Shown here: in pieces, positions 30,009 through 64,000 of the stretch
Position numbering within the stretch: the stretch's first letter is position 1
Layout: every line of letters starts with the position of its first letter
Source: a phage
Sequence record: PZ445430.1
DNA: 64,000 nucleotides
Reading direction: 5' to 3' (one strand)
Notes under the pieces: generated by a model
What the model saw: only the letters and a program-made list of their open reading frames with translations
Told to the model about the DNA's origin: nothing
Databases searched by the model: none
Program-made: the position numbers and the translations under genes

Positions 30009-30023
30009 AATTTAAAAATTCAT

Positions 30024-30052
30024 TTGCCTTCTCTCTTATTTCTTGTTATAAT
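30024..30052 (+). promoter_or_regulatory. early promoter (TTGCCT-17-TATAAT)
   Basis: -35 at 30024-30029, -10 at 30047-30052. Confidence 0.55.
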
Positions 30053-30082
30053 ATTTATATAAATTAATGAGAGGGAAACCAA

Positions 30083-30376: not shown

Positions 30377-30582
30377 TGAGAATTACTTTCACAGAAAAGA
30401 TTATGGGCAATGGTGTTATGATCATTACCGCATGGGATGGTAATCAGTGGTGTAGTGTTTCAGGTATTAAGCCTGAAGAACAAACACTAGAAAATATCTC
30501 AAAGATTAAGCGAAGAATGGCAGAACGTGCACGACTTCCAGGTGCGCCTAGAAATGGTAAACGTTCTGCAATTAAATGTTAA
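30376..30582 (+). CDS. hypothetical protein
   Basis: Coupled to upstream gene (ATGA overlap). Confidence 0.45.
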   Translation: MRITFTEKIMGNGVMIITAWDGNQWCSVSGIKPEEQTLENISKIKRRMAERARLPGAPRNGKRSAIKC

Positions 30583-30583
30583 T

Positions 30584-30660
30584 GCTTCGGTAGCTTAGCG
30601 ATCTAAAGCACTCGGCTGATAACCGAGAGATCGGGGGTTTAAATCCCTCCCGGAGTACCA
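30584..30660 (+). tRNA. tRNA-Ile(GAT)
   Basis: D-stem gctt/aagc; anticodon arm ctcgg-CTGATAA-ccgag; CCA encoded. Confidence 0.75.
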
Positions 30661-30756
30661 AATTTAGGAAGTAAGACTATGCGTCCAGGAAAGTTTAAAA
30701 AAGCTAATTGGTCTAAAGAGTATAAAGAATACTTACTTAGTCTAGTAAAACATAAT

Positions 30757-30832
30757 AGTTAGTTGGCAGAGAGGTTATGCACCTCCTTCATACGGAGCGA
30801 CTACAGTGGTTCAAATCCACTACTAACTACCA
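30757..30832 (+). tRNA. tRNA(CAT), third copy
   Basis: Acceptor agttagt/actaact; anticodon loop TTCATAC; T-arm agtgg-TTCAAAT-ccact; CCA encoded. Confidence 0.65.
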
Positions 30833-47259: not shown

Positions 47260-47444
47260 TGGAAACATTACTTCTTATATTACTGGGCGGTTCACTCTTA
47301 ACTATTCTAGGCTTGATACTGATTTGCAGTCGTCTTAATACTAAGAATCTAGAGTTAAACTGTGAGAACGAGATTCTTAACAGAGAAATTAAACAACACA
47401 ATATCGCAGCTCGTAAGCTGTTAGATAAACTGGAGAATAAATAA
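47259..47444 (+). CDS. small membrane protein
   Basis: Coupled ORF. Confidence 0.45.
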   Translation: METLLLILLGGSLLTILGLILICSRLNTKNLELNCENEILNREIKQHNIAARKLLDKLENK

Positions 47445-48055
47445 TGTTTACACAACAAACCATTAAAGTAGTAGCAGATCATGAACTCGACACATGGGAT
47501 TACAGCTTTAAAGATCTGACTGCTACAGTACAGTTTAAATCTATGCAACTGTCGTTTTTGCACACTGATCTTCAAGGTTGCAAGGAATTTCAGGCTAAGC
47601 TTATGAATGCTCGTGCTATCTTTGGCACGGCTCGTATCCCGGCTGATAATCTGATTAATGCACTAATCGATGCTGGATACAAACTCGTGAAGACTGAGGT
47701 GAATCGCCCTAGTACTCCAGTGACTATTCGGGATCCGTGGCAGTCGGGGCCAATCGCAATGCTGAATAATTCTGATAAAAGATTAATGTCGGATATGCAC
47801 AATGTTCCTTGTGGTGGCGTGGTAAGCAATACGCAAGCATATAAGTTTGGGGAAGCATCTAGCGTAGACGAGTGGAATAAAGCTGGCGTTGCAATGATGG
47901 GCTTTGCAAAAGATCGCGGAGCACAAGAAGACTCCGGAGTTTCTAGGAACTCATATACTATTCGTTTGAGCAATCCTAGCAAAGAAGGTGAGCTTGAAGA
48001 AATGTTAACGAAAGTATTCGAAGCTATTGATGCAGATAAGGCTAGAGGTCGTTAA
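47444..48055 (+). CDS. hypothetical protein
   Basis: Coupled ORF. Confidence 0.5.
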   Translation: MFTQQTIKVVADHELDTWDYSFKDLTATVQFKSMQLSFLHTDLQGCKEFQAKLMNARAIFGTARIPADNLINALIDAGYKLVKTEVNRPSTPVTIRDPWQSGPIAMLNNSDKRLMSDMHNVPCGGVVSNTQAYKFGEASSVDEWNKAGVAMMGFAKDRGAQEDSGVSRNSYTIRLSNPSKEGELEEMLTKVFEAIDADKARGR

Positions 48056-48363
48056 TGGATATAATTACTCAGTTTACTGTAGGCCGCTGTAAGGTGGCCA
48101 CACTCAATAAACATACAGTCGGAGTTAGTACATTATCTGAAAACGAATATGAACAAAAAGAAGATATGCAGTATATTCTCTTCATTGGTTCAGATGATAT
48201 GAAGTTACTTAAAGACCTAGTATTTAAGTTACCTCCAAATATAAAAATAACACCTAGAAATATATCTCACTTATCTGAGCAGCTAGGGTTTACGTGGATT
48301 AAGTTAGATCCTTCAGTGAAATCAGTAACAAAAACTAAACCAAAACCGGATGATTATATATGA
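48055..48363 (+). CDS. hypothetical protein
   Basis: Coupled ORF. Confidence 0.5.
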   Translation: MDIITQFTVGRCKVATLNKHTVGVSTLSENEYEQKEDMQYILFIGSDDMKLLKDLVFKLPPNIKITPRNISHLSEQLGFTWIKLDPSVKSVTKTKPKPDDYI

Positions 48364-49085
48364 GTATAAAAAAGAATTTAGCAGAGATTATTAAGTTAGC
48401 TAGAGCTTGTAATGGAAAGAATGTTTCCGAACTTAATGAGTTAGAAGCTCATGCAGTAGCATTTTGTGCAGAGTTTTATCCAGCATATATTAATGCTAGT
48501 GGGCAACCTAAATATAATAAAGATGCAGAAGAAGTTACTCTAGCACCTTCTTATATTAGTTTACGTCGTCTGATTCAAACTGTTGATCCTACTATTAAAG
48601 GATTTTCAGCAGATTCATTCCACGTCTTTGCAGATAAAGAACTCCCGCATTTTAAAGAAGGAAATGCAAAGTCATGTTTAGAATGTTATCCTAATATTCT
48701 GATGATTCCTCAAAAGCAATGTAAATACGATCATCTCCCTAGACTTACAAAGAAAGTAGAACCACCATATTCTTCTCTATCTGAATTAAAGCTAGGAATC
48801 GTATCTACACTTGCGCAGGTTCATCTAAGTATAGTTGACGAATCAACATCATCTAACCATATTCTAGATGCTGCTCACTTTGAAATCTTACGTGATCCTG
48901 AACAAGCTAGAAAAGTTGCAAGATCTGTTAAGTTTGATATCGAAACAATTCTTGACACTAAACAAGAAACTAGATCTAGGGGAAGTGTAGATTATTCTGC
49001 GCTAAATTCCGAGTCATCTTACCTAGCAACATTCCTTTTCATGGCATCGAAGGGAGTCATACTCAAAGTCAATCACGATCTATAA
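48360..49085 (+). CDS. hypothetical protein
   Basis: Last gene of the plus-strand early block. Confidence 0.5.
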   Translation: MSIKKNLAEIIKLARACNGKNVSELNELEAHAVAFCAEFYPAYINASGQPKYNKDAEEVTLAPSYISLRRLIQTVDPTIKGFSADSFHVFADKELPHFKEGNAKSCLECYPNILMIPQKQCKYDHLPRLTKKVEPPYSSLSELKLGIVSTLAQVHLSIVDESTSSNHILDAAHFEILRDPEQARKVARSVKFDIETILDTKQETRSRGSVDYSALNSESSYLATFLFMASKGVILKVNHDL

Positions 49086-49574
49086 ACGTTAGCAAAATCT
49101 TCTTGACATTATTTGAGCTGCATGTTATAATAATCTCATAGATTAAAAACATCAACTTGTTTTTACCTCTAGGCCGTAGATTTACATCATTCCTCGTAGG
49201 AAAACACTTGATGACGGTTCTGCTTGCAGGTTCTCGTCAATTGTTCTTCCTCCCCGAGACTCAGGAGGATGTATCAAATCGCACGCGCCTAGAGGGGCTA
49301 ACTCTCATGAAATGGGGGTATATTAACTTTTATTTACCTTATAATATTTAAAGGCAATATTTGTGTTCAAGATGATACACCGGTTGCCGCTCATCTGCTA
49401 GGACGGCACAACACTTTCTAGTAGACTCCTAAGTTTCTAGGAAAACTCACGCATTCTAGGGCAGTTTCTCTCCAACGTCACATATCCTAGGCCGGTTTTC
49501 CTATACAGGGCGGTTATAGGGAGGGCGGTTATTTCTAGACAACATTTTTCCAAAACACATTTCTGGATTTTACT

Positions 49575-50176
49575 GTCGGATTTGCACACTATGTTTCTAG
49601 AAATTTATGGTCGGATTTGCACATTGATAGGAGTCTCCAAAGTTTTTAGGAACACTGAAAATAGCAGCATTATTTCGGGCCGAAGGCCCATATTTGCCTG
49701 CGTTTTTAGAGCCACAGGAATTTTCACTTGTCAAGCGATTTTGCCCCATTTTGCTAATAAAATTTCGCTTTATCTCCACTAATCTCAATTCTAGCCAAAA
49801 CACCCCACATTATCCCCAAAAACGCAGCAAACCGGTGCTGAAGCACCACTACAGCTGCATCCTCCATAGTTCCTCCCAAAAACCTCGTCGGATTCGCACT
49901 TCTCCCCAAACCCACACAATCACACACCCTCTCATCGAAGTCACAAAAATATTCCTGAAACCATAAATCTGTCTCCTAGCAAACTCATGTCGTATTTGCA
50001 CATATACGGCTGGATTTGTGCGCAGCACGAGTCTGCCCGAGTTTTTAGGAAAATTCATTGTCGGATTCGCACACTATAAAAATATTTGCCATCGGATTTG
50101 CACACTACCAAAAATTGTCGGATTCGCACATATACGCTGGCACGTAATCCGTGGGGGCAAATGTCGGATTTGCACA
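49575..50176. repeat. iteron-like array, about 9 copies of GTCGGATT(T/C)GCACA
   Basis: Copies near 49575, 49610, 49887, 49989, 50060, 50092, 50117, 50163 plus a variant at 50010. Confidence 0.75.
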
Positions 50177-50228
50177 AAAGCGCAGGGCAAATAGAAAATG
50201 CCCTGCCTGCCGAAATGCAACTGATAAT

Positions 50229-50400
50229 GAGATTGATTCGCATTTGAGAAGTGGAATGCGAATGAGAATAGTTATCATTTGACTACCTGAATACGAATGA
50301 GAATGATTTGCATTTAGGAAGGGAAACGCGAATGATAATGAGAATGATTCGCATTTAGGAAGGGAAACGCGAATGATAATGAGAATGATTCGCATTTAGA
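50229..50400. repeat. tandem direct repeats, about 3.5 copies of a 41-bp unit
   Basis: Unit gagaatgattcgcatttaggaagggaaacgcgaatgataat; two perfect copies at 50299-50380. Confidence 0.8.
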
Positions 50401-50429
50401 AAGCGAAGTGAGAAACACTGTTATTTAAG

Positions 50430-50438
50430 TTATCCACA
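50430..50438 (+). promoter_or_regulatory. DnaA box TTATCCACA
   Basis: Exact 9-mer consensus; TTATCAACA-like variants at 50491-50513. Confidence 0.55.
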
Positions 50439-50521
50439 GGTTTATTAACAGCACGATTTGACTTGACAAAATCCTAGCGATTTTGAGGCGTTTTCAACAG
50501 ACTTATCAACAGGTTATTCTA

Positions 50522-50537
50522 CTGTATATTTATACAG
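50522..50537. promoter_or_regulatory. LexA (SOS) box CTGTATATTTATACAG
   Basis: Palindromic CTGT-N8-ACAG; extended TACTGTATATTTATACAGTA is one substitution from the E. coli consensus. Confidence 0.6.
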
Positions 50538-50570
50538 TATTTCTGTGTAGTGAATAACTCTAATATAGCT

Positions 50571-50603
50571 CTAAAACGCTCTGTAACGCATTCTAACGCG
50601 TTT
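50571..50603 (+). repeat. direct repeat copy 1 (ctaaaacgctctgtaacgc..gcgttt)
   Basis: Near-identical to 54700-54731; both preceded by ttatcaacagg. Confidence 0.7.
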
Positions 50604-50686
50604 ATTTTTGGAGGAGGTATTTTAATAAGGGGAAATTTGTTTGCAGGCAGAAAAGGCGGGGCGCAACTATCTGGCCCCCGTTATTA

Positions 50687-50881
50687 TTAGTCTGGTAGTC
50701 GATGTGTGATCTTTTCGCTTTCGCCGTAGGAGTCTACCAAATGTTGATAGTAACCATCGTTATCATAAATCACTTTATCATAATCGCCACGCTCCACCGC
50801 TTGCCGATTTTCCCGCGTATCAGGCACAAAGAAAGTATCAACGGTAACAGTAGTTTTAGTTACAACAATTTTATCACTCAT
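50687..50881 (-). CDS. hypothetical protein
   Basis: Last gene of minus-strand operon. Confidence 0.45.
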   Translation of the reverse strand: MSDKIVVTKTTVTVDTFFVPDTRENRQAVERGDYDKVIYDNDGYYQHLVDSYGESEKITHRLPD

Positions 50882-51011
50882 AACGCCATCGCTCCTAGAA
50901 TGAGAATGATTATCAATATCATTGTAAAGCCATTACCAAATCGTAAACGCTGGGAATGTTTCCCAGCGGTATTATTAGATTTATGGCTTTGTGTTTTTCG
51001 CCACCAGCTAT

Positions 51012-51224
51012 TCACGGTTTTAAATTCTCTATAGTTAATTTTGCGCGGATAGTAATTCCGTATAATTCGCCTCCCTTGTTTCTTACATCAGGTAGCCAGT
51101 CCCACAATTCAGGGTATCCGCTTAAAATTCCTAGCGATGCAAGATTAGCAATAAAACCGGCTATAGTAACCGCTTCCAGTGAAATAGTTACACGATTATT
51201 AATAACTAAAGTAAACTTTTTCAT
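51012..51224 (-). CDS. hypothetical protein
   Basis: Minus-strand operon member; coupled. Confidence 0.45.
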   Translation of the reverse strand: MKKFTLVINNRVTISLEAVTIAGFIANLASLGILSGYPELWDWLPDVRNKGGELYGITIRAKLTIENLKP

Positions 51225-51565
51225 TGCGCCACCTTTCGAAACGCTGTTTCGATACTTTCAGCGGTTGATTGAATATACGCGCCTTTCATAATCAGGCGCT
51301 CCGTACATACTTTGCGGAAAATGTCAATAAATTCATTTTCATTTTCCGCTATTAACGCTTCCCCCATAACCTGAATATCGCATGAGTTAAAAGTAAGAAA
51401 CTGAAAGGCAAGCTCGCGAGCGACAACGGCAGAAATTTTATAATGTGCTTTGCCTTCATAGATATTAACCACGCCTTTATAAACTGGTGAAAGCTGATTT
51501 AAATAGTTTGCTAATAATGCCGAACGGCAATTAGCAACAAAACGATTGCCCTCGTAAATAACCAT
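51221..51565 (-). CDS. hypothetical protein
   Basis: Minus-strand operon member. Confidence 0.5.
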   Translation of the reverse strand: MVIYEGNRFVANCRSALLANYLNQLSPVYKGVVNIYEGKAHYKISAVVARELAFQFLTFNSCDIQVMGEALIAENENEFIDIFRKVCTERLIMKGAYIQSTAESIETAFRKVAQ

Positions 51566-51674
51566 TTGTCAAGCTCCTAAAGCTGGGAAAATATCATGTA
51601 CATTTTTAAAACAAATGCGGCGACGGAACATACAACGCCAACGGTAGCAAACGCTAGAGCAATATATAAGGATC

Positions 51675-51887
51675 TCATAATACCCCACGAAACGCAGCGT
51701 AAAAAGTAGCAAAGTGTTTAACCGTTTCGGCTATCAAATTGCCACGCTTGTCAAATTTCTTTTCTGTAACACGGAAAGCGTTTTTGTTGCGTGCTACATA
51801 TTCGATTTTACAATCTGGACGCTCGAACGTGTTAACATCCACCAGCTTAAAACCTTTGGAACGGGCAAGGGAAACATTCTTTAACAT
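51675..51887 (-). CDS. hypothetical basic protein
   Basis: AGGGG RBS. Confidence 0.45.
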   Translation of the reverse strand: MLKNVSLARSKGFKLVDVNTFERPDCKIEYVARNKNAFRVTEKKFDKRGNLIAETVKHFATFYAAFRGVL

Positions 51888-51889
51888 TT

Positions 51890-52039
51890 TTATTCCCCTT
51901 TACCAGTCATACAGCCTAACAAGTAAGAAAACCCCGCGATACCTGCTCCAATAATAACCACGTTAACGCCGAAAGCTATTACAAACAGTGATAAAATAGC
52001 GCCCAAGATACTAGCTAGAATAGATCGAAAAATAACCAT
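51890..52039 (-). CDS. small membrane protein (49 aa)
   Basis: AGGAG RBS; two hydrophobic helices; below track size cutoff. Confidence 0.35.
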   Translation of the reverse strand: MVIFRSILASILGAILSLFVIAFGVNVVIIGAGIAGFSYLLGCMTGKGE

Positions 52040-52085
52040 TTTATTAGCTCCTAGAAATTAGGGGATAATATACCCCCTTTATTAA

Positions 52086-52313
52086 TTACATTAAAACAAT
52101 TTTTGCCGCTTGCTTTTTAGTGCAATGGTTAGCTTTCAATTCATCCAGCAAAAATCCGGCGGTTTGCTGGTCAATCTTGTCATTGTCGTAAAGCCCCTGA
52201 ATGGTAACATAAGTTTTACCTATGCCGAACTCAGAAACCATAACGCTGACAATAGCGGGAACGGATACCCATTCCATACCGTTAAAAATTGCAGAAGATG
52301 ATGAATGTACCAT
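52086..52313 (-). CDS. hypothetical protein
   Basis: Minus-strand operon member. Confidence 0.45.
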   Translation of the reverse strand: MVHSSSSAIFNGMEWVSVPAIVSVMVSEFGIGKTYVTIQGLYDNDKIDQQTAGFLLDELKANHCTKKQAAKIVLM

Positions 52314-52420
52314 TTTAACGCCTCCTAGAAATCAGGGAAAATTTTCAATCCACCGTTTCGGTGTAAAGGCATTATAACAAAAAAGGTCGCCATAATAGGC
52401 GACCTTTACAAAACTTTACA

Positions 52421-52915
52421 TTAGACTATTTCTAATGCTTCAACATTAAAACAGCGTTTTAGTTCTTTCTGTAAAACGGCATATTCATCCCAACGGGAAT
52501 TATCAGGAATATAAACAAGCTGTTTTAATCGGTTTGCGTATAATAACGCCTTGTTACCAATTATTTCCGCGCCACCGTGTTTAATAATTAGTTTCATAAC
52601 GGTATTAATAGGATCGCCGCCATTTACATAAGTACCGGACTTACTCAATTGATAATGATAAAGACTCGCATATACATTATCATTTTCAATCCATTCCCCT
52701 GTTTCTTCATCTTCTTCCCCATCGCTACCGAAACGAGAAGCATTATCATATGCGTGTTCGTTTGCGAAAGCATCCAGATCACAGCCAGCGGGAACAAAAT
52801 GTTCCTCCGTCCAGCCCTCCCCGCAATAGCCAGTATGACAATCAACTAAAACGATCATATCGTGTTTAGCTTCACTCACACTTTCTAGCGAAAAGCCATA
52901 TTTTTCTTCTGACAT
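52421..52915 (-). CDS. acidic hypothetical protein
   Basis: 164 aa with Asp/Glu-rich stretch (SDGEEDEETGEWIEND). Confidence 0.5.
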   Translation of the reverse strand: MSEEKYGFSLESVSEAKHDMIVLVDCHTGYCGEGWTEEHFVPAGCDLDAFANEHAYDNASRFGSDGEEDEETGEWIENDNVYASLYHYQLSKSGTYVNGGDPINTVMKLIIKHGGAEIIGNKALLYANRLKQLVYIPDNSRWDEYAVLQKELKRCFNVEALEIV

Positions 52916-52979
52916 AACTAGACTCCTAACAATTAACAGGGAAATAGTAAAGCGGGGAAATAATCCCCGCTAGTAATTA

Positions 52980-53981
52980 TTATTCGCTTTCGGTGTTAGT
53001 GGCAAAGGTAGAAATATCGATACCTTTTACCATTTCGTCGATCATTTCAGCAATATTGAAACTCTGTACCATTTCCAACATTGCCGCTTCCATTGCCGCG
53101 CCTGCTACCGCTTTAGCTTTTGCGTTAGTCGGGGCGTACTGGTCAACCGCTACGCTTAACAGGTTAGCGATCACTACGCGACCAATCGGAGTATCAATAT
53201 AACCTTTAATCATAAACGGCGCTTTTTTAGCCGCTACTTTTGTGATTTGAGTCAATGCAATTTTACCCGCTTCCAGTTTAGCAGCGTTTACAACGGCAGA
53301 TTTGTTAGCAGCAACGATAGAAGATACTTTAGACATAATATTTCCTTTATTTTCAGTAGTTTGCGCATTTGCGCTTGAAGTTTGAGAGTTTACAGCCTGT
53401 TTTGCTACGTTGTCAACTGGTTTTAGTGTAAATCCAGCATTTGCAATGTTTGATTCATTCCCATACTCTAAATAATCGTTAGGGATCAACATGTTACCGC
53501 TAGCGCGTTCAAAACACAATACGCCAGTTGTTTCGATTGCGTCACTATCAGCACCTTTATAACTGGATGATAATTCACGCCAGATACTATTTAATAACGA
53601 TCCGACACTATCCAATCTGATATTATTTACTTTTGTTGCTGTTACCTGCTCTTTTTCTTGCACGTTATATAATCGCGCAATGTAACCACTATGGGACTCA
53701 CTATAACCAACAATGATAAAATCAATATCAGTTCCCCGACTATTACGGAAAATGTGATAATCACGGTTGAAAATTACTAGCGCCCTTGTCTGGTCTAGTA
53801 ATAGCGTGAAATCATCGACTGAATAATGAGTATCATTATTGTCTAAAATTTCATCGTGAATCTTTTCAACCATTGCCGCCTTATGTTGTAGGCTTGCTGG
53901 ACTTGATCCGTCTAGCAGGTTGCGCAAACTACCCTTAATAATAGTGGCGTTTGCTGGTACTGCAATTCTTACAGTAGACAT
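52980..53981 (-). CDS. hypothetical protein (333 aa), first gene of minus-strand operon
   Basis: Long ORF with Ala/Lys-rich C-terminal half; no recognisable motif. Confidence 0.55.
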   Translation of the reverse strand: MSTVRIAVPANATIIKGSLRNLLDGSSPASLQHKAAMVEKIHDEILDNNDTHYSVDDFTLLLDQTRALVIFNRDYHIFRNSRGTDIDFIIVGYSESHSGYIARLYNVQEKEQVTATKVNNIRLDSVGSLLNSIWRELSSSYKGADSDAIETTGVLCFERASGNMLIPNDYLEYGNESNIANAGFTLKPVDNVAKQAVNSQTSSANAQTTENKGNIMSKVSSIVAANKSAVVNAAKLEAGKIALTQITKVAAKKAPFMIKGYIDTPIGRVVIANLLSVAVDQYAPTNAKAKAVAGAAMEAAMLEMVQSFNIAEMIDEMVKGIDISTFATNTESE

Positions 53982-54230
53982 TTCTTTGTCTCCATCGTTA
54001 ATCGGTGAGTGAATGATATAGATATTTGTTTGTTAGGGGCAAGAAAAAAGAAAAGGTTTTTTATTCCTTGCCTAACGCTTGTTTTTATGCTAATCGCGCG
54101 TTTTCTATTTCTAGCTATCTGTAAGCGTACACAAGGCTTTATTATAATAAGGGTAGCAGTGAGAAAACGCCGTGTAGCGTGTTCTAGGCCGCTTAAATTT
54201 GATTGCGGTTGTTACTGCTACCATTCTACC

Positions 54231-54246
54231 CTGTATATTTATACAG
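54231..54246. promoter_or_regulatory. LexA (SOS) box CTGTATATTTATACAG
   Basis: Identical 16-mer to 50522-50537; about 250 bp upstream of operon start; half-site CTGTATATA at 54255. Confidence 0.6.
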
Positions 54247-54266
54247 TAGGATAACCTGTATATAAG

Positions 54267-54324
54267 TCTGTGGATAAGTCGCCAAATCGTCGCCTATTGC
54301 GTCAAGTTATTTTGTGCTGTGGAT
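54267..54324. promoter_or_regulatory. two DnaA boxes (TGTGGATAA) in reverse orientation
   Basis: Exact boxes at 54267-54275 and 54316-54324. Confidence 0.55.
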
Positions 54325-54339
54325 AACTTTGTGAATAAC

Positions 54340-54440
54340 CTAAATGATAGTGGTTCTCACTTAGCTGATAGTTTCTTATAGTTATTATTTCTCTTTAATT
54401 TATATGTATATTATATAATATGAAATAGTTAGTTGGCTAA
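54340..54440. other. AT-rich tract, possible DNA-unwinding element
   Basis: About 85 percent A+T next to DnaA boxes. Confidence 0.35.
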
Positions 54441-54699
54441 TAGGTTTTTAGATTATTAATAGTCTGCTAACTGTTTCGGCTGCTACAATCCACCAGCGTG
54501 ACTATCCTTCTAGTGATTGTTAGTCTGCTACTATTTTCTAGCGTTACCAATTCTTAAATGATAATCATTTGCATTGTAGGAAACTTACGAAAACAGTAAG
54601 AAAATAACATGTCAATAGCTAACGCTGCAATGCACAAAAATAAATTTTGTCAATACCCGAAAGTTATTAAATGTGATGCGGATAAGTTATCAACAGGGT

Positions 54700-54731
54700 C
54701 TAAAACGCTCTGTAACGCTCTCTAAGCGTTT
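54700..54731 (+). repeat. direct repeat copy 2
   Basis: Matches 50571-50603; preceded by ttatcaacagg at 54687-54697. Confidence 0.7.
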
Positions 54732-55116
54732 TTAGTCAAAAGCTAGGCAAGTGCATTGCCACTATGCCGATCTCCTCACCACGAGGATTTTAGATTTTGT
54801 CAAGTACCCTAGAGCAGATATAAATGAAAAAATTACTTGCTAAAATGGTTGTTTTGGTGTTATTCGCACGCCTGTTTCATTAAATTTAGTGCGCCGCTTG
54901 CCGTGGTGCGGGTAGTGGTTTTCTTTACGTTTCTTTACAAAAATAAGGTTGCGCCATTTTCGGGAATCCCCTATTATTTATCTCGTAGGACGGCAAGACG
55001 GAAACGAAAGGCCAGAATACAACGGCGGGGAAGTTTACCGCCACGCTCTTTAAAAATTAGGGAACATCTTAAAGCCTATCGGCGGTAAACTTATACATTA
55101 TAAGGAACTGACGATA

Positions 55117-55335
55117 ATGATCAAATCAAAAAACGCTTTAGTGATTAGTGCAAAACCTGCTAGCGCATTAGATAGCAGAACAAAAAATTTGTTGACAGTA
55201 GCGCAACGATCTGTAAAATACAGATTCAAGCAATACAAGAAAGGTAAGCAGCAAGGTCTGGAAATGGTGTGGCGTAATATAATGATTGATTTATATAACT
55301 CACATCAAATCGAAAAAAGTTTAAAAAACGCTTGA
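55117..55335 (+). CDS. hypothetical basic protein
   Basis: AAGGAA RBS. Confidence 0.4.
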   Translation: MIKSKNALVISAKPASALDSRTKNLLTVAQRSVKYRFKQYKKGKQQGLEMVWRNIMIDLYNSHQIEKSLKNA

Positions 55336-55501
55336 CACGCTAGCCGATAGGTTTTAAGATGTTCCCCGTAGTAACTGCTCTTTAACAATTTGGAAAAACG
55401 GTAATGTTTAGGCTAACTCCTAGCGGATTATAATCTAATAGCGTTTCAAAGTATCGAGGCGCTATTGTGGAATAATCCCCCAATAAACCGGAGTATTAAA
55501 A

Positions 55502-55753
55502 ATGCAAAACGTTATTACCGCGCCGAAAGTAGGTCAATCTGTATTTATTCCTTTCGTTACTAAAACGGATGAATTAACTGGAAAAGCCGAACGTATTAAA
55601 GGTGCGGCGCTTGATCCTTTCGATAAAATTGAAGCGGTCTATGCGGAAACGGAACGCAGTAACCACGGCAAGCCAATTTATAATGTTCGCGTTAAATCCG
55701 GCGACGTTGTAAAGGTCATTCAGAAAGATGATAAATGGCAAGCTATCGCCTAG
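55502..55753 (+). CDS. hypothetical protein
   Basis: GGAG RBS. Confidence 0.45.
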   Translation: MQNVITAPKVGQSVFIPFVTKTDELTGKAERIKGAALDPFDKIEAVYAETERSNHGKPIYNVRVKSGDVVKVIQKDDKWQAIA

Positions 55754-55977
55754 TAGCTTATTACTAACCCGCGCCTTTAATCGGCGTAAATAAATAAGGC
55801 TAGCGCCTCATGTTAGATTTTCGATATATTAACCATGTAGTGTGAACAATGTTATGGCACACAATTTAAACTTATATGATTAGTGTTACTTTTATATTGC
55901 CCTGAAATATGGGCAATATAACGATTAACATTAGTTAATCATAATCCCTTAATTAATAATTGAATGGAGTATTTATT

Positions 55978-56394
55978 ATGTCTAACGTTAAAACCGAAAA
56001 AACCGCAAAATTCTCTTGGAACGAAGAAAACACCGAAAAAGCTGTTTCTATGTATTCTGAAATGGTCGCTAAAAGCGGAATTGAATTTGCTAACACTGAC
56101 GGCTTAAAAGAAATTGCCGCCGCCGTTGGCGCCGCTAGTCCGGTGTCTGTACGTTCTAAACTGACAAGCGCGAAAGCGTACCAGAAAAGCGATAAACCGC
56201 GTAAAGTTGGCGGCGGGTCTAGTGTCCGTAAAGCTCACTATGTGCGCGTTATGGCTAAACATGCCATTGATGCTGGCGTTATCAAAGACGCTGACGATCT
56301 GGCAAGTCTGGAAAGTGCAAAACTGGAAACGCTGGAAGCCGTAGCGCAATTGTTAGGCGTAGCGGAGGAAGTAAAACAGGCCGCAGGTGAATAA
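55978..56394 (+). CDS. hypothetical protein
   Basis: Internal ATG of track ORF 55960..56394 after TGGAG RBS. Confidence 0.5.
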   Translation: MSNVKTEKTAKFSWNEENTEKAVSMYSEMVAKSGIEFANTDGLKEIAAAVGAASPVSVRSKLTSAKAYQKSDKPRKVGGGSSVRKAHYVRVMAKHAIDAGVIKDADDLASLESAKLETLEAVAQLLGVAEEVKQAAGE

Positions 56395-56443
56395 ATTTTA
56401 ATCAGCGGGGAATATTCCCCGCTATCCCTTAAAGGAGAATAAA

Positions 56444-56668
56444 GTGATTTTCTACCCTAGCGAAGCGTTTATTTTAGGTTTATTTATTATTGCCGCCGCT
56501 TTTATTCTGAATTATACGCGGTCAATTCTGGCAATAATCGGAATTAATAACGTTTACGCCGCAAATAATTTCCGCAAAAACGCGAACATTCAAAAATATA
56601 TGTCAATTATATTTCTTACAGTTGGCATTGTATTTGGCTTTTGTTCTAGTTTAATGCCGATTAATTAA
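56444..56668 (+). CDS. small membrane protein
   Basis: GTG start after AAAGGAG; two TM helices. Confidence 0.4.
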   Translation: MIFYPSEAFILGLFIIAAAFILNYTRSILAIIGINNVYAANNFRKNANIQKYMSIIFLTVGIVFGFCSSLMPIN

Positions 56669-56777
56669 ATGTTGCAAATTATAACGCCTTTTAAATTGTC
56701 CTCACTTCAGGCAAGGCGTTATATTTGGCAATATTGCCAGTATTAATATTTATCCCTTTATAGGAGTTGATTTAGTT

Positions 56778-58445
56778 ATGAATATTTCCGCAGAAAAACA
56801 AGCCCAGATCGTTAAACTTGCCGCTGATTTCAATTTCTACGGTAAGCGTTTACGCGCTACTAAACTGGAAGTTTGTGACGATATTTCAAAAGCTGTTTAC
56901 GATACAACGAAACATTCAACCGCAATTTGTGACTGGCTGGAAGCAAATAAGCCAGCTAAACCGAAAGCGGCAAAAGCTGAAAAGGCGATTAAAAATGATG
57001 ATCGCCCCGAAGCGGCGGGAATTGTTTCTAGTACCGTGGAACAATGGGAAGTTAAATCCGGTCGCCGTTTTATTCTAACGTCGATTCAAAATAATACTTT
57101 CCCGCATAAAAACTTTTTAGCAAGTCTGGAAAAATTCGCTGAATATATCGGCGCTGAATTGCTCGTTTCTAAATTCATTTACAATAAAAATGGATTCCAG
57201 AACGGCGACGGCAGCAAAGAAAAAATTAAATACGATCCCGCATTTGATAAATATATCTGTGATAAAAATGTTTTCTTGAATAATCGCCGCTTTGCTTTCA
57301 TGTCTGAAATTAACGTATTACCAACGGCAGATTATCCGCTTACAGGATTTGCAGAAACCGCCACGGCTTTAAATATTGACGGGCTGGCAATTGGTGCGGC
57401 AAAAATTACCGCTGAAAGTGTACCAGCGTTAAAAGGTGAAGTAGTGCGCCGTATGTATTCAACCGGAACGGCTACGCTTAAAAACTACATTCAGCAGAAA
57501 GCAGGTCAAAAAGCTGAGGCTCTGCATAATTTCGGCGCTTTGCTGGTGGAGTTCGACGACGATGGCGAATTTTTTGTGCGCCAGCTTGAAACAATGGACG
57601 AAAGCGGAATGTTCTATGATTTGAATATTTGCGCTATGCCTACCGGATGTTTTGAAACGTCCGATCATGTTTTAGGCTTGCAGTATGGCGATATTCACGC
57701 CGAAAAATTAGATGATGAATGCGCCGTTGCGTCATGGGCTAGTGAAAACAGCTTGCTTGATATTCTCAAGCCTAAATATCAGTTTATTCATGATGTGCAT
57801 GATTTTACATCGCGCAATCATCATAACCGCGCAAGTGGTGTATTCCTTGCTAAACAGTACGCCGCCGGACGTGACAAAGTTATTGACGATCTCATTGATA
57901 CCGGTCGCGTGTTGGAGTCAATGGAGCGTGATTTCTCTCAAACAATCATTGTTGAGTCTAACCATGATTTGGCGCTTTCCCGCTGGCTGGATGATCGTAA
58001 CGCAAACATTAAGGACGATCCCGCAAACGCCGAACTATATCACCGTTTAAACGCTGCAATTTACGCCGCAATCGGTGAACGTGACGAAACGTTTAACGTT
58101 CTAGATTACGCCTTGCGTAGTGTCGCAGGTTGTGAATTTAACGCTATTTTCCTGACGACAGACCAATCATTTAAAATCGCTGGCATTGAGTGCGGCGTAC
58201 ATGGTCACAATGGCATTAACGGCAGTCGGGGCAATCCTAAGCAGTTTAAAAAGTTGGGACGCCTTAACACTGGTCATACTCATACGGCTAGCATTTATGG
58301 CGGTGTTTATACCGCTGGCGTTGCTGGTAGTCTCGATATGGGTTACAACGTGGGCGCGTCAAGCTGGACGCAAACGCATTTAATTACCTATGCAAACGGT
58401 CAAAGAACATTGATCGACTTTAAGAATGGTAAATTCTTTGCATAA
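56778..58445 (+). CDS. A1: A1-like pre-early protein with metallophosphatase-type domain
   Basis: 555 aa; motifs GDIHAE, ESNHD, GHNG, GHTHT; size and position fit T5 A1 from memory. Confidence 0.55.
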   Translation: MNISAEKQAQIVKLAADFNFYGKRLRATKLEVCDDISKAVYDTTKHSTAICDWLEANKPAKPKAAKAEKAIKNDDRPEAAGIVSSTVEQWEVKSGRRFILTSIQNNTFPHKNFLASLEKFAEYIGAELLVSKFIYNKNGFQNGDGSKEKIKYDPAFDKYICDKNVFLNNRRFAFMSEINVLPTADYPLTGFAETATALNIDGLAIGAAKITAESVPALKGEVVRRMYSTGTATLKNYIQQKAGQKAEALHNFGALLVEFDDDGEFFVRQLETMDESGMFYDLNICAMPTGCFETSDHVLGLQYGDIHAEKLDDECAVASWASENSLLDILKPKYQFIHDVHDFTSRNHHNRASGVFLAKQYAAGRDKVIDDLIDTGRVLESMERDFSQTIIVESNHDLALSRWLDDRNANIKDDPANAELYHRLNAAIYAAIGERDETFNVLDYALRSVAGCEFNAIFLTTDQSFKIAGIECGVHGHNGINGSRGNPKQFKKLGRLNTGHTHTASIYGGVYTAGVAGSLDMGYNVGASSWTQTHLITYANGQRTLIDFKNGKFFA

Positions 58446-58497
58446 TTAAATTTAATCGGCGGTTGAAATATACCGCCATTAATAAAAGGTTTATTAA

Positions 58498-58755
58498 ATG
58501 AATATTGTATTACCTAAAACACTGGATAAAAAGCAGTATATAACGCCGGATGATATGGAATACGGCAAGGTATACCAATTCGATTATATGTTGGCTAGTC
58601 CGACGAATACAGGTTGTATTATTGCAGTTGATACCCGCGATAATGACGTGTTAACGTTTAATGATTATTCTGACTTTATGGAATGGTTAGATGATCAAAG
58701 TATCACTAATAATGGCGAATTAACGCCCTATCAATTAACGCTCACAATTAAATAA
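58498..58755 (+). CDS. hypothetical protein
   Basis: ORF, weak RBS. Confidence 0.45.
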   Translation: MNIVLPKTLDKKQYITPDDMEYGKVYQFDYMLASPTNTGCIIAVDTRDNDVLTFNDYSDFMEWLDDQSITNNGELTPYQLTLTIK

Positions 58756-58793
58756 TTTAATCCCGTAAATATAAATAATCTGGAGTTATAAAC

Positions 58794-59186
58794 ATGAAAC
58801 AACAAAATATTCCTTTCGACGCTGCAAAATCTTCCATCGTTCTAGTTTATTCTAATGGCGAGCGTTATCACGTCGAAGCGGGGCAAGTTAATTTTGATTT
58901 GCTGAATTATAACGACGCTTTGCAGGTTACTACCTTTGCTTATGATACCGGCAAAGTGGCAAGCCATACGAAAGCAAAAGGCGTTTACGCTGATACTTTG
59001 ACAGTGCAAACAATTATTATTGATGCGCTTAAATCCGGTCTAGCGTTTGCAGTTGTTAAGCCATGTCCGGTCTGCAATCCCGAAGCTAGCGCGATGGTTT
59101 ACACTTGCGTGGGGATTCGTTCTAGCGTACATGGTGAAGATCTTAGCTTTATTGGTGACGCGCTAGCGTATGGCCTCACTAATTAA
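58794..59186 (+). CDS. hypothetical protein, possible A2-like
   Basis: 130 aa downstream of A1-like gene; GGAG RBS; assignment by position only. Confidence 0.4.
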   Translation: MKQQNIPFDAAKSSIVLVYSNGERYHVEAGQVNFDLLNYNDALQVTTFAYDTGKVASHTKAKGVYADTLTVQTIIIDALKSGLAFAVVKPCPVCNPEASAMVYTCVGIRSSVHGEDLSFIGDALAYGLTN

Positions 59187-59273
59187 TAGTTAATTGAACA
59201 TTGCCAGCTAATCTAATATAATTAGCTGGCAAGATTGAATTAACCTAAATCCCTTAAATGGAGAATGTAACAA

Positions 59274-60008
59274 ATGAATCAAGTTAAAATGAATATTACC
59301 CGCACTTTCCCGCATATTTCCCGCGTTATGATTTGGGATTTAGACGGGACAATCATTAATTCATTCCATCGTGTAGCGCCTTGCTTTGATGATAACGGGA
59401 ATTTAAATTTAGTTAAGTATTCCCGCGAAGCCTGCAAACACGATTTAATTATGCAGGATTCTTTATTGCCATTGGTTGAATATATGCGCCAATGTATGAA
59501 TGATGCAAATACATTAAATATTATTTGTACCGCGCGCCTAATGTCTAAAAGCGATTATTTTTATTTGCGCAAACAAGGCTTGCGAGGGCGCGGAAATAGT
59601 AATATTCGCGTATTTTCCCGCGATACATTACATAAATACTTTGATGCAAATAAGGTTAGCGAAATATATCACAGCAAAGACGCAGTATATAAAAGCTATT
59701 ACTTTGAACTGTTTAAACAGCTATATCCAAACGCTGATTTTACAATGATTGATGATCATAAAGGTGTATTATCAGCGGCGGCAAGTGCTGGATTTAAAAC
59801 GCTGGATGCTCAAGCCGTTAACGATATCCTATCAATCGGCGTAACATTGATCGGTGAAACCTTTATTGATGAATCGCTTGATGATGATAACGATTATCAA
59901 TTCCTAGCCGATAGATTAAAAATGTGTTGGGAAGGTATGACCGAGGAAGAACGCGCAGAATATAGTTGCAGCCCGCAACAATTCATTGATAAATTAAAAG
60001 TCGCCTAA
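59274..60008 (+). CDS. dmp: HAD-family 5'-deoxyribonucleotidase-like protein
   Basis: 244 aa; HAD motif I MIWDLDGTII. Confidence 0.6.
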   Translation: MNQVKMNITRTFPHISRVMIWDLDGTIINSFHRVAPCFDDNGNLNLVKYSREACKHDLIMQDSLLPLVEYMRQCMNDANTLNIICTARLMSKSDYFYLRKQGLRGRGNSNIRVFSRDTLHKYFDANKVSEIYHSKDAVYKSYYFELFKQLYPNADFTMIDDHKGVLSAAASAGFKTLDAQAVNDILSIGVTLIGETFIDESLDDDNDYQFLADRLKMCWEGMTEEERAEYSCSPQQFIDKLKVA

Positions 60009-60024
60009 CAATTAAAAATAAAAT

Positions 60025-60057
60025 AGTCACACTGTGTAATGATAACATGGTGTGACT
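60025..60057. terminator. hairpin between convergent genes
   Basis: Stem agtcacac..gtgtgact with 17-nt loop. Confidence 0.4.
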
Positions 60058-60166
60058 ATTAGCTTGCTAATTACCGGGGCGGTAATGAGACTCATTCTCA
60101 TCTAGGGAACCTCTGGGCACACCTTCATGTGTAATCTTATGAGATTTGGCAAAAGTCAAATTAGCG

Positions 60167-63518: not shown

Positions 63519-64000
63519 ATGGCAAATGATGTATTAGTTCCTGATCTCATGTCTCCCGAAGGCATGGATGTTATTGAAGCCTATTTACAGTGTGGTAGTG
63601 ATGTTCCTGCCGCTGCTCGTAGTCTTGGGATGTCCGAGATTGCATTCCGTGATATAATGAATCGTGGGGAAGTTAAAAACTATCTTAACGATATCTTTAT
63701 GGAAAGCGGCTTCCGTAATCGCGACCGTTTGTTTGGGGTTCTTGATGAAGTTATCAAGCGCAAGTTGGAAGAACTCGAAGAAACTGGCATGGGTTCTGAC
63801 CAGGATATCATGGATATTCTCTGGAAGGCGCACAAGATGAAGATGGAAGAAATGAAAATGATGGTAGAACTGGAGAAAGTGAAGGCAGCAGCCCGTACTC
63901 CAGCTAATCAGACTAACATTCAGAATAATATTATTGCTGGAAGTGGTGACGAAAACTATATGAATCTTATTACCGCTCTAGCAGGAGGAGGTAAGAGATA
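63519..64000 (+). CDS. partial CDS, terminase small subunit-like (HTH plus coiled coil)
   Basis: AAGGAGG RBS; ORF open to window end; HTH-like [16 protein letters not shown]; assignment tentative. Confidence 0.35.

What the first reader, a model, noticed from the sequence alone, without database searches (positions are those of the whole stretch)
49575..50440. ORF-free repeat landscape: iteron array, 41-bp tandem repeats and a DnaA box
About 1.5 kb with no credible ORF carries about nine copies of a 14-bp motif in both spacings, then 3.5 tandem 41-bp units sharing the GATTCGCA core, then an exact DnaA box. This looks like a protein-binding array such as an origin or an injection-stop-type locus. 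I recall from memory that the T5 injection-stop region carries repeats and DnaA boxes; treat that as unverified.
Basis: partly seen in the sequence, partly recalled or inferred. Interest (0 to 1): 0.6.

Follow-up and report, generated by a model that had tools for sequence, protein, structure and literature searches.

The report
T5-type phage injection-stop repeat region
This repeat-filled non-coding stretch is the well-known "injection stop signal" region at the inner end of the terminal repeat of a T5-like phage; it was described in 1987 and is annotated in T5, so it is real and conserved but not new, and its mechanism is still unsolved.

Summary
The window is a T5-like phage, 100% identical to Escherichia phage SuperGirl/Bas29. 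The 1.6-kb gap 49086-50686 holds 8 good copies and 1 degenerate copy of RTCGGATTYGCACA, all on one strand (0.08 expected). It also holds five 35/41-bp tandem units and an exact DnaA box.

The origin alternative is not supported.

All elements recur in 12 relatives, out to Pectobacterium phage My1 and Klebsiella phage Sealy. By homology, the interval also holds the genome's right physical end (49708|49709) and the 7.9% nick site (50179|50180).

How transfer stops is unknown. DnaA binding is a published but untested hypothesis.

Two additions of mine:
- The tandem units, and the whole terminal repeat, are strongly enriched in Fur-box-like sequences.
- A conserved promoter at 49103 drives a ~200-nt structured RNA that is not annotated.

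Verdict: already known; low-to-moderate interest.

The parts
49575..50176 (+). Array of the 14-bp motif RTCGGATTYGCACA, equivalent to T5 'direct repeat D'. Copies lie at 49575-49588, 49610-49623, 49887-49900, 49989-50002, 50060-50073, 50091-50104, 50117-50130 and 50163-50176, with a degenerate copy at about 50009-50022. All are on the + strand with irregular spacing (35, 277, 102, 71, 31, 26, 46 bp).
   Evidence: 9 hits against 0.08 expected. maps them onto T5 DR-D copies 8, 7, 5, 4, 3, 2 and 1. T5 copies 6 and 9 are absent here, and 49887 is a copy T5 lacks. One search shows 6-11 copies, always on the same strand, in 12 relatives including My1 and Klebsiella phage Sealy; the six-copy count is bombadil, whose record begins inside the array.
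49661..49760 (.). The most conserved 100 bp of the region. It contains the GC hairpin GGGCCGAAGGCCC (49677-49689) and, by homology, the right physical end of the genome, which is also the inner end of the terminal repeat, at 49708|49709 (GTTTTTA|GAGCCACAGG). The terminal repeat runs from 49709 to about 60133 in this window.
   Evidence: conservation 0.89-0.99; the T5 end and the PhageTerm-derived end of Sepoy fall at the identical site, and vB_SenS-3 is within 4 nt. One search gives the extent of the terminal repeat. The MF4317xx records annotate the end 210 bp further in, equivalent to window 49919.
50177..50206 (+). Site homologous to the T5 7.9% major single-strand nick (AAAA|GCGCAGGG, between 50179 and 50180), followed by palindrome J (GCAGGGCAAATAGAAAATGCCCTGC, 50182-50206). 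It lies directly 3' of the last direct repeat D copy.
   Evidence: T5 annotation mapped through the alignment. AAGCGCAGGGCAA is invariant in 9 phages. Whether SuperGirl DNA is actually nicked here cannot be tested with these tools.
50212..50421 (.). Five tandem units (35, 35, 41, 41 and 41 bp), equivalent to T5 'direct repeat C' with palindromes E-I. Each unit carries an inverted pair of half-sites (AATGATTCGCATT and AACGCGAATGA). The three 3' units (50296-50407) are 95% identical. One 41-bp unit (about 50311-50351) is absent from all 8 aligned relatives. The units match the Fur-box consensus at 14-15 of 19 positions.
   Evidence: the repeat period varies among relatives (23, 35, 41, 46, 58, 69 bp); single-stranded DNA folding z = -5.4. 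for the Fur-box matches.
50407..50539 (+). Inverted repeat C' - 52-bp spacer - inverted repeat D'. It carries two pairs of DnaA-type boxes: 50430-50450 (TTATCCACA-GGT-TTATTAACA) and 50491-50511 (TTTTCAACA-GAC-TTATCAACA). Palindrome D (TACTGTATATTTATACAGTA) lies at 50520-50539.
   Evidence: Conservation is 0.85-0.99. The 61-bp register between pairs is present in all 11 relatives whose held sequence covers it.
50650..50680 (-). Terminator-like GC hairpin (GGGGCC...GCGCCCC followed by a T-run) ending the pre-early operon on the - strand. It corresponds to T5 palindrome C, a putative rho-independent terminator.
   Evidence: and direct reading of the sequence.
54231..54340 (-). Distant inverted partner of the box region (T5 'Repeat Region 2', inverted repeat C - spacer - inverted repeat D). 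It carries TGTGGATAA twice and TGTGAATAA. Davison argues that it belongs to the same functional unit.
   Evidence: (56-nt arms, 80% complementary, 3.7 kb apart), and (literature).
49361..49535 (+). Conserved blocks outside the terminal repeat: 49361-49435, and the direct repeat AGGGCGGTTAT x2 (49507-49532). Copies of a second dispersed motif, GTTTYTAGRA, lie at 49434, 49532, 49594, 49643, 49703 and 50042.
   Evidence: conservation 0.90-0.99; families D4-D6 and D11.

Best explanation
This is the SuperGirl copy of the T5-family 'Repeat Region 3'. It is the non-coding, cis-acting locus at the inner end of the long terminal repeat and contains the injection stop signal (iss).

Shown here: orthology to the T5 iss region; retention of every named element; and conservation of the elements across the family, far beyond what the flanking DNA shows.

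Established for T5 in the literature: DNA enters left end first, and transfer halts after about 8%, near this region, until the pre-early proteins A1 and A2 are made.

Inferred mechanism: the locus is a composite of protein-binding arrays.
1. The paired DnaA-type boxes and the adjacent palindromic tandem units enter the cell last during first-step transfer. They are bound by abundant host DNA-binding proteins. DnaA is the published candidate; Fur is a candidate I add. Binding, and/or folding into hairpins, holds the DNA at the envelope.
2. The one-strand direct repeat D array lies beyond the shear point. It is probably still inside the tail or capsid at arrest. It is the site for a phage-specified protein (A2 is the obvious candidate) that acts at restart, at end formation, or both.
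3. The same locus carries the genome's right terminus and a programmed nick.
For: Identity: 100% match to SuperGirl, an Epseptimavirus. Alignment to the T5 iss region at 81-85% column identity. The T5 records annotate the iss, direct repeat D x9, direct repeat C x4, inverted repeats C'/D', palindromes, the 7.9% nick and the terminal repeat end there. All of these map onto the window.

Context: dmp, A1 (phrog_1745, DNA transfer protein) and A2 (phrog_1725, DNA binding protein) lie in the same terminal repeat.

Selection:
- The direct repeat D motif keeps its sequence, strand and number (8-11) in every relative held in full, even in My1 and Sealy, where only 20-43% of the region still aligns.
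- The box pairs keep a 61-bp register in all relatives that cover them.
- The block between 50665 and 51219 has no T5 homologue, while the non-coding region does.
- The distant inverted partner is present.

Literature: Davison 2020 (bioRxiv 10.1101/866236) describes the same architecture in 25 T5-like phages, including chee130_1, which is 92% identical to the window here. PMC13250531 and bioRxiv 10.64898/2026.04.02.716235 treat it as the iss.

Geometry (inference): the estimated shear point, T5 9618, maps to about window 50238. That places the boxes 190-270 bp further in along the entering DNA. The direct repeat D array and the terminus lie within about one tail length: 40 tube rings, taken as about 160 nm or about 470 bp from my own knowledge.
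Against: - No protein has been shown to bind any element.
- The exact stop point is not mapped at nucleotide level. PMC10644984 says the iss position is undetermined for most phages.
- Half of the 'DnaA boxes' are non-consensus, and the relaxed DnaA consensus is not enriched in the window.
- The DnaA-membrane model is explicitly hypothetical.
- Whether SuperGirl itself injects in two steps, is nicked here, or ends at 49708 is inferred from relatives only.
- The shear-point estimate is approximate, so the inside/outside geometry is soft.
Confidence: 0.8

Rival explanations
1. Genome-end formation or packaging site. The direct repeat D array and the highly conserved block around 49709 are recognition sites for the terminase or end-processing machinery that creates the right terminus and regenerates the terminal repeat from concatemers. 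This would act instead of, or in addition to, an injection-stop role.
For: The physical right end maps inside the interval at a conserved sequence. It is identical in T5 and Sepoy and within 4 nt in vB_SenS-3. The surrounding 100 bp are the best-conserved part of the region. Direct repeat D copies lie on both sides of the end, two outside and six inside. My1 keeps direct repeat D copies on both sides of its own terminal repeat end.
Against: No direct repeat D copy occurs anywhere else in the T5 left terminal repeat, including near the left terminus, which must also be cut. The nearest direct repeat D copies are 86 and 178 bp from the end. Nothing is known about terminase recognition in T5. This rival is compatible with the main explanation rather than exclusive of it.
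Confidence: 0.2
2. DnaA-dependent or iteron-type replication origin. Direct repeats act as iterons, DnaA boxes recruit the host initiator, and AT-rich palindromes serve as the unwinding element.
For: There are direct repeats in one orientation, an exact DnaA box with three near-consensus boxes, and the AT-rich palindrome D.
Against: Davison states that T5 origins were mapped near the centre of the genome. He also notes that the replication genes are not yet in the cell during first-step transfer. No initiator gene is adjacent. The repeat spacing is irregular (35-277 bp), unlike iterons. GC skew shows only a local C-rich patch, not a clear switch. The locus is duplicated at both genome ends.
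Confidence: 0.05
3. Transcriptional boundary or insulator. The region separates the pre-early operon from the convergent early genes. Terminators and protein roadblocks prevent read-through in either direction, and the repeats are regulatory operators.
For: Gene arrangement is convergent (48360-49085 on +, 50687-50881 on -). A terminator-like hairpin ends the pre-early operon. A consensus promoter at 49103 points into the region. Fur-like and DnaA-like operators are typical repressor sites.
Against: 1.6 kb with more than 20 conserved repeat elements is far more than a boundary needs. The same elements recur in an inverted copy 3.7 kb away. There is no evidence that any element affects transcription.
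Confidence: 0.1
4. The region is translated. The annotated 50-aa ORF bas29_0182 (49597-49749, - strand), or other small ORFs, are real genes, and the 'repeats' lie within coding sequence.
For: The ORF is annotated in SuperGirl and HildyBeyeler and stays open in 8 of 9 aligned phages.
Against: Substitutions are spread evenly over codon positions (14/14/14). The start codon is lost in T5. There is no PHROG family. The ORF spans a direct repeat D copy, the hairpin and the genome terminus. Small-ORF calls in this gap differ from record to record.
Confidence: 0.03

Closest known systems
Bacteriophage T5 injection stop signal region ('Repeat Region 3' of the left terminal repeat). Sources: Heusterspreute et al. 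1987, Gene 52:155 (cited); annotation of AY587007 and NC_005859; Davison 2020, bioRxiv 10.1101/866236.
   Same: The position is the same: the inner end of the terminal repeat, after the last pre-early ORF. The order of elements is the same: terminator, palindrome D, inverted repeat D' - spacer - inverted repeat C' with paired DnaA boxes, direct repeat C tandem/palindromes, palindrome J with the 7.9% nick sequence, the direct repeat D array, the terminal repeat end, and two more direct repeat D copies. Column identity is 81-85%.
   Different: The tandem block has a 35/41-bp period with one extra 41-bp unit, whereas T5 has a 23-bp basic unit. T5 direct repeat D copies 6 and 9 are missing, and a new copy sits at 49887. 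The second box pair is TTTTCAACA/TTATCAACA rather than TTATCAACA/TTATCCCCA. These are ordinary within-family variations.
The iss region of Epseptimavirus chee130_1/saus132, one of Davison's 25 phages
   Same: It is 92% identical over the whole 1.6 kb, with the same direct repeat D layout and the same two upstream 35-bp units.
   Different: It lacks the 41-bp high-identity triplet of units. Its annotated terminal repeat end is 210 bp further in than the T5/Sepoy site.
E. coli oriC and other DnaA-box clusters
   Same: Both have multiple DnaA-type 9-mers in a fixed arrangement. Davison points out this resemblance.
   Different: There are no 13-mer unwinding repeats and no initiator gene. There is no evidence of replication from this site. 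Boxes occur as direct pairs 3 bp apart, and half of them are non-consensus.
Fur-box operator arrays of enterobacterial iron-uptake promoters (consensus GATAATGATAATCATTATC, from my own knowledge of de Lorenzo 1987 and Escolar 1999)
   Same: The tandem units contain GATAATGAGAATGATTCGC (15 of 19). Relatives contain GCGAATGATAATCATTCTC (16 of 19), with the central 13 nt identical to the consensus. Several sites sit side by side, as in natural Fur operators.
   Different: The outer triplets are GCG/CGC rather than GAT/ATC. The sites are not at a promoter. Binding is untested, and a phage protein could equally be the ligand.

Membership tests
T5-family injection-stop-signal region (left terminal repeat, Repeat Region 3) | Lies in a large untranslated stretch at the inner end of a ~10-kb terminal repeat that also encodes dmp, A1 and A2 | tested here: met
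   The terminal repeat is homologous to T5 1-10219 and spans window 49709 to about 60133. A1 and A2 are identified. The gap is 1601 bp.
T5-family injection-stop-signal region (left terminal repeat, Repeat Region 3) | Sequence homology to the region annotated as iss in T5 | tested here: met
   81% and 85% mean column identity. The iss feature lies at NC_005859 9140-10149.
T5-family injection-stop-signal region (left terminal repeat, Repeat Region 3) | Series of about nine direct repeat D copies | tested here: met
   Eight copies plus one degenerate copy, all on the + strand. Seven are positionally orthologous to T5 copies.
T5-family injection-stop-signal region (left terminal repeat, Repeat Region 3) | Inverted repeat D' - 52-bp spacer - inverted repeat C' carrying two pairs of DnaA/DnaA* boxes 3 bp apart, with an inverted partner (inverted repeat C - spacer - inverted repeat D) deeper in the terminal repeat | tested here: met
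   Pairs at 50430 and 50491, starts 61 bp apart. Partner at 54231-54340.
T5-family injection-stop-signal region (left terminal repeat, Repeat Region 3) | Major single-strand interruption at 7.9% | not testable with these tools
   The nick-site sequence AAAA|GCGCAGGG is conserved at 50179|50180. The nick itself needs virion DNA.
T5-family injection-stop-signal region (left terminal repeat, Repeat Region 3) | DNA transfer actually pauses here until A1 and A2 are made | not testable with these tools
   Known for T5 and BF23 from the literature. Never tested for SuperGirl.
DnaA-dependent or iteron-type replication origin | Cluster of initiator-binding repeats next to an AT-rich unwinding element and (for iteron origins) an adjacent initiator gene; replication starts there | tested here: not met
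   Repeats and boxes are present. However, there is no initiator gene, the repeat spacing is irregular, and there is no clear skew switch. Davison states that T5 origins map near the genome centre. Origin firing itself is not testable here.
Fur-regulated operator (Fur box) | Match to the 19-bp consensus at a level typical of functional sites, in arrays | tested here: met
   Four sites at 14-15 of 19 lie in the tandem block. Twelve lie in the terminal repeat, against 0.67 in shuffles and a maximum of 6 for 1000 permuted consensus sequences. Such sites occur in the tandem segment of all 12 phages compared, the window included.
Fur-regulated operator (Fur box) | Binding by Fur-Fe2+ and iron-dependent effect | not testable with these tools
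   No experiment is available. No paper found links Fur to T5-like phages.
Terminase recognition / genome-end site | Physical genome end falls at a conserved sequence within the element | tested here: met
   By homology only: the T5 and Sepoy ends coincide exactly at TTTTTA|GAKCC, which corresponds to window 49708|49709. Terminase binding is not testable.

The most novel reading that the evidence does not exclude
The palindromic tandem units of the iss region, and at least 8 further sites spread over the first-step-transfer DNA, are functional Fur boxes. On this reading the abundant host iron regulator Fur, alone or together with DnaA, is the long-sought host factor that coats or anchors the incoming DNA at the stop signal. 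Alternatively, Fur ties pre-early expression and transfer restart to the iron state of a host whose T5 receptor (FhuA) is itself Fur-controlled. As far as I could search, Fur has not been proposed for T5.
Probability: 0.15. Interest if true: 0.7.

Novelty: already known. Interest (0 to 1): 0.27.

Why it matters
The region is the cis-acting half of one of the oldest unsolved puzzles in phage biology: why T5 DNA entry stops after 8% and how A1 and A2 restart it. As of 2026 it is still described as poorly understood (PMC13250531).

Finding it in another T5-like genome adds no new biology. The comparative picture assembled here does sharpen the questions an experimenter would ask:
- Which sub-elements are invariant out to Myunavirus and the Klebsiella phages.
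- The genome terminus and the nick lie inside the same locus.
- The direct repeat D array probably sits outside the cell at arrest.
- The tandem units look like Fur operators.

Tried and rejected
- Rfam, at gathering threshold on the whole window and at E-value threshold on 49000-50800, gave only tRNAs and two chance-level hits.
- A coding reading of the annotated 50-aa ORF was rejected: there is no third-position bias, no family, and the start codon is lost in T5.
- The origin reading was rejected (see rivals).
- A search for other copies of the nick-site sequence AAAGCGCAGGGC, meant to define a nick consensus, was inconclusive: 4 hits against 2.9 expected.
- Enrichment of the relaxed DnaA consensus in the window was not found.
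- CTAG density is only mildly raised in the region: 7.5 per kb against 4.8 per kb.
- Davison 2015 (Bacteriophage 5:e1086500, PMC4743489) could not be read because it is not held. What that paper says about the repeats is known to me only through the 2020 preprint.
- Pfam gave nothing for A1 or A2.
- I did not build a proper Fur weight matrix because I had no verified site collection.
Full report
WHAT THE WINDOW IS. The 1.6 kb around the finding is 100% identical to Escherichia phage SuperGirl (Bas29, MZ501105; Demerecviridae, Epseptimavirus). It matches 451 phage records at megablast level and 541 at blastn level. Nearly all are T5-like phages of Salmonella, Escherichia, Klebsiella and Pectobacterium. 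Window coordinate equals record coordinate minus 47303, and the orientation is the reverse of the T5 convention. A 27-tRNA cluster lies at 18450-30832. The pre-early genes A2, A1 and dmp lie at about 55978-60008.

CHECK OF THE OBSERVATION. The gap between ORF 48360-49085 (+) and ORF 50687-50881 (-) is 1601 bp.
- 14-bp motif. RTCGGATTYGCACA at <=1 mismatch occurs 9 times in 64 kb against 0.08 expected. Eight copies lie between 49575 and 50176, all on the + strand. There is one more degenerate copy at about 50009.
- Tandem repeat. TRF finds a 41-bp repeat of 2.7 copies at 95% identity, at 50296-50407. In register there are five units at 50212-50421, spaced 35, 35, 41 and 41 bp.
- Shared core. 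GATTCGCA is enriched (7 against 1.9 expected), and 6 of the 7 lie in the region.
- DnaA box. An exact TTATCCACA sits at 50430-50438.

One annotated 50-aa CDS (bas29_0182, 49597-49749, - strand) lies in the gap. Its variable columns fall 14/14/14 by codon position across nine phages. T5 lacks its start codon. No PHROG family matches. I treat it as a spurious call.

WHAT IT IS. The gap aligns with T5 NC_005859 9150-10940 (81% column identity) and with AY587007 (85%). NC_005859 annotates 9140-10149 as 'injection stop signal (iss)', inside the left terminal repeat (1-10219), with a 'major DNA single-chain interruption' at 9748/9749. AY587007 annotates every repeat. Mapped through the alignment:
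T5 copies 8, 7, 5, 4, 3, 2 and 1 are positionally conserved. Copies 9 and 6 are missing here. The copy at 49887 has no T5 counterpart.
- The 41-bp tandem block is 'direct repeat C' copies 1-4 with palindromes E-I.
- The exact DnaA box lies in 'inverted repeat C''.
- To its right come the second box pair, inverted repeat D' and palindrome D (50520-50539).
- The terminator of the pre-early operon lies at 50650-50680.
- The inverted partner of the box region (T5 Repeat Region 2) is at 54231-54340, with 56-nt arms that are 80% complementary.

Davison's preprint (bioRxiv 10.1101/866236) describes exactly this architecture in 25 T5-like phages. One of them is chee130_1, which is 92% identical to the window here. 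The feature is therefore already known. Its DnaA boxes were noted in 1987.

INDEPENDENT CONFIRMATION OF CONSERVATION. I fetched the region from 12 relatives.
- Direct repeat D keeps its sequence, strand and number (8-11 copies). This holds even in Pectobacterium phage My1 (a different subfamily) and Klebsiella phage Sealy, where only 20-43% of the region is still alignable. The one lower count, six copies in bombadil, comes from a record that begins inside the array.
- Every relative whose sequence covers it has two pairs of DnaA-type boxes 3 bp apart, with pair starts exactly 61 bp apart.
- The block between the last direct repeat D copy and the boxes is always a palindromic tandem repeat. 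Its period differs between phages (23, 35, 41, 46, 58, 69 bp), and the window has one 41-bp unit that none of 8 aligned relatives has. This part behaves like a minisatellite built from a conserved ~23-bp core.
- Against T5, the non-coding region is about as conserved as the neighbouring genes, while the adjacent block 50665-51219 has no T5 homologue at all.

TWO FURTHER LANDMARKS INSIDE THE INTERVAL.
(a) The right physical end of the genome, which is also the inner end of the terminal repeat. The ends of T5 (AY587007) and Sepoy (PhageTerm) fall at the identical site, GAGTTTTTA|GAKCCACAG, and vB_SenS-3 is within 4 nt. This corresponds to window 49708|49709. The surrounding 100 bp (49661-49760), including the GC hairpin at 49677-49689, are the most conserved part of the whole gap (0.89-0.99). 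Two direct repeat D copies therefore lie outside the terminal repeat and six inside. The MF4317xx records place the end 210 bp further in. I follow the T5/Sepoy site because two records from separate sources, Sepoy's end being a PhageTerm prediction, place it at the identical nucleotide.
(b) The 7.9% nick maps to 50179|50180 (AAAA|GCGCAGGG), immediately 3' of direct repeat D copy 1, in a stretch invariant in nine phages.

HOW IT PROBABLY WORKS. For T5 the literature establishes four points:
- The left end enters first.
- Transfer pauses after about 8%.
- A1 and A2 are needed to resume.
- The stop is attributed to a cis-acting signal in this region.
Nothing further is established. A 2026 paper still calls the mechanism poorly understood, and the exact stop position is undetermined for most phages. 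Davison's model, in which membrane-bound DnaA holds the box pairs and A1/A2 cut the DNA free, is explicitly speculative.

My reading of the anatomy is that the locus is composite.
- The estimated shear point (T5 9618) maps to about window 50238. At arrest, the box pairs (50430-50511) would then be just inside the cell, and at least part of the tandem block would be inside or within the envelope.
- The direct repeat D array and the terminus would still be in the tail or head. The T5 tube has 40 rings. At about 4 nm per ring (my own knowledge) that is about 160 nm, or about 470 bp.
- If so, host cytoplasmic proteins can reach only the boxes and the tandem units at arrest. The direct repeat D array more likely acts at restart, or in end formation and packaging, through a phage protein. 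A2 is a DNA-binding dimer, and matches phrog_1725.
- This geometry is an inference from an approximate shear estimate.
- The region also has unusual hairpin potential as single-stranded DNA (z = -5.4). That keeps a purely structural contribution possible.

A NEW LEAD: FUR-LIKE BOXES. The tandem units contain GATAATGAGAATGATTCGC, a 15 of 19 match to the enterobacterial Fur-box consensus GATAATGATAATCATTATC (consensus from my own knowledge).
- At >=14 of 19, the window has 12 distinct sites in the 10.4-kb terminal repeat and 4 in the other 49.7 kb. Dinucleotide shuffles of the terminal repeat give a mean of 0.67 and a maximum of 3.
- 1000 permutations of the consensus give at most 6 sites. With the tandem block removed, the count is 8 against a maximum of 5.
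- The 7-1-7 form of the motif gives 25 hits against 8.3 expected, and 17 of the 25 lie in the terminal repeat.
- T5 has 7 such sites in its left terminal repeat. My1 has 0.47 per kb in its terminal repeat against 0.08 per kb outside.
- All 12 phages compared, the window included, have 1-4 sites in the tandem segment. One example is GCGAATGATAATCATTCTC in Gostya9, whose central 13 nt equal the consensus.
- The Davison preprint does not mention Fur. Two literature searches linking Fur to T5-like phages found nothing relevant.
This is sequence evidence only. A phage protein could be the true ligand of the palindrome GCGAATGAnAATnATTCGC. I give the Fur reading about 0.15.

RIVALS.
- A role in genome-end formation is well compatible with the data and may coexist with the stop function (confidence 0.2). 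Against it as the sole function: no direct repeat D copy occurs elsewhere in the T5 left terminal repeat, including near the left end.
- A replication origin is unlikely (0.05). There is no initiator gene, the repeat spacing is irregular, there is no skew switch, and Davison states that T5 origins map near the genome centre.
- A transcriptional boundary is possible as a side function (0.1).
- Translation is unlikely (0.03).

SEEN IN PASSING. A perfect sigma-70 promoter (TTGACA-17-TATAAT with an upstream TG) at 49103-49131 points into the gap. It is conserved in all nine other Markadamsvirinae examined and in Klebsiella phage Sealy.
- The ~200 nt downstream of it exist as four unrelated sequence types among relatives.
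- All four types fold into the same architecture: a short 5' hairpin, a ~130-nt long hairpin, and a terminator-like hairpin with a U-tract. The z-scores are -5.3, -6.6, -7.1 and -5.9.
- In all four, the sense strand is 8-12 kcal/mol more stable than the antisense strand.
- There is no Rfam match.
This looks like an unannotated structured RNA gene next to the terminal repeat. It may deserve more attention than the finding itself.

VERDICT. The feature is the known iss / Repeat Region 3 of T5-like phages, so it is already known. Interest is low to moderate. It is raised a little by the unresolved mechanism and by the Fur-box and RNA leads.

Noticed in passing
window 49103-49340 (+): A perfect consensus sigma-70 promoter (TTGACA-17-TATAAT with TG) is followed by a ~200-nt transcript region. 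That region folds into a short 5' hairpin, a ~130-nt long hairpin and a terminator-like hairpin with a U-tract. Four unrelated sequence types among relatives share this architecture (z -5.3 to -7.1), and the sense strand is more stable than the antisense in all four. It has no Rfam match and is not annotated. The types do not follow genus boundaries: HildyBeyeler, a Tequintavirus, has the SuperGirl type. It is a candidate structured RNA gene.
   Followed up: partly
window 49709-60133 (terminal repeat); best sites at 50902, 53822, 54554, 59880 and 59885: Fur-box-like sequences are about 14-fold denser in the terminal repeat than in the rest of the window. There are 12 sites against 4, with 0.67 expected from shuffles and at most 6 for 1000 permuted consensus sequences. 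The same tendency holds in T5 and My1.
   Followed up: partly
window 47788-47801 (+), inside ORF 47444-48055: A tenth direct-repeat-D-like copy (GTCGGATATGCACA, 1 mismatch) lies 1.8 kb outside the array, inside an early gene. It is also present in chee130_1. A weaker copy lies at 47551.
   Followed up: partly
window 50311-50351: One 41-bp tandem unit is absent from all 8 aligned relatives. The repeat period in this block differs among T5-like phages (23, 35, 41, 46, 58, 69 bp), which suggests rapid expansion and contraction.
   Followed up: yes
window 49887-49900 and 49953-49967: Turnover of direct repeat D copies. T5 copy 6 is mutated away here (TCCTGAAACCATAAA), and T5 copy 9 is deleted. A copy T5 lacks is present at 49887; chee130_1 carries one at the equivalent position. 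The total number is roughly preserved.
   Followed up: partly
window 49597-49749 (-): GenBank CDS bas29_0182, and its HildyBeyeler counterpart bas33_0168, is probably a spurious call. It spans a direct repeat D copy, a hairpin and the genome terminus, and shows no codon-position bias. Small-ORF calls in this gap differ between records.
   Followed up: yes
L002 8817 and L012 917 versus L008 507 and L009 723: The inner end of the terminal repeat is annotated 210 bp further in for the MF4317xx phages (chee130_1, poul124) than the site shared exactly by T5 and Sepoy. One of the two sets of annotations is probably imprecise.
   Followed up: partly
window 49600-50200: There is strong local strand asymmetry (GC skew -0.25 to -0.33; C/A-rich runs such as CCCCAAA and CACACAC) between direct repeat D copies 7 and 4. 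This corresponds to T5 'direct repeat A' copies 2-3.
   Followed up: no
window 49434-50042: A second dispersed motif, GTTTYTAGRA, has 6 of its 12 + strand copies in the window within this 600 bp. One copy (49703) overlaps the predicted genome end, and one forms the palindrome TTTCTAGAAA between direct repeat D copies 8 and 7.
   Followed up: partly
window 63519-64000: With window = record - 47303 and a record length of 110,821, the window runs about 480 nt past the end of the SuperGirl record. The source must therefore be a permuted or circularised form of the collapsed one-repeat assembly.
   Followed up: no
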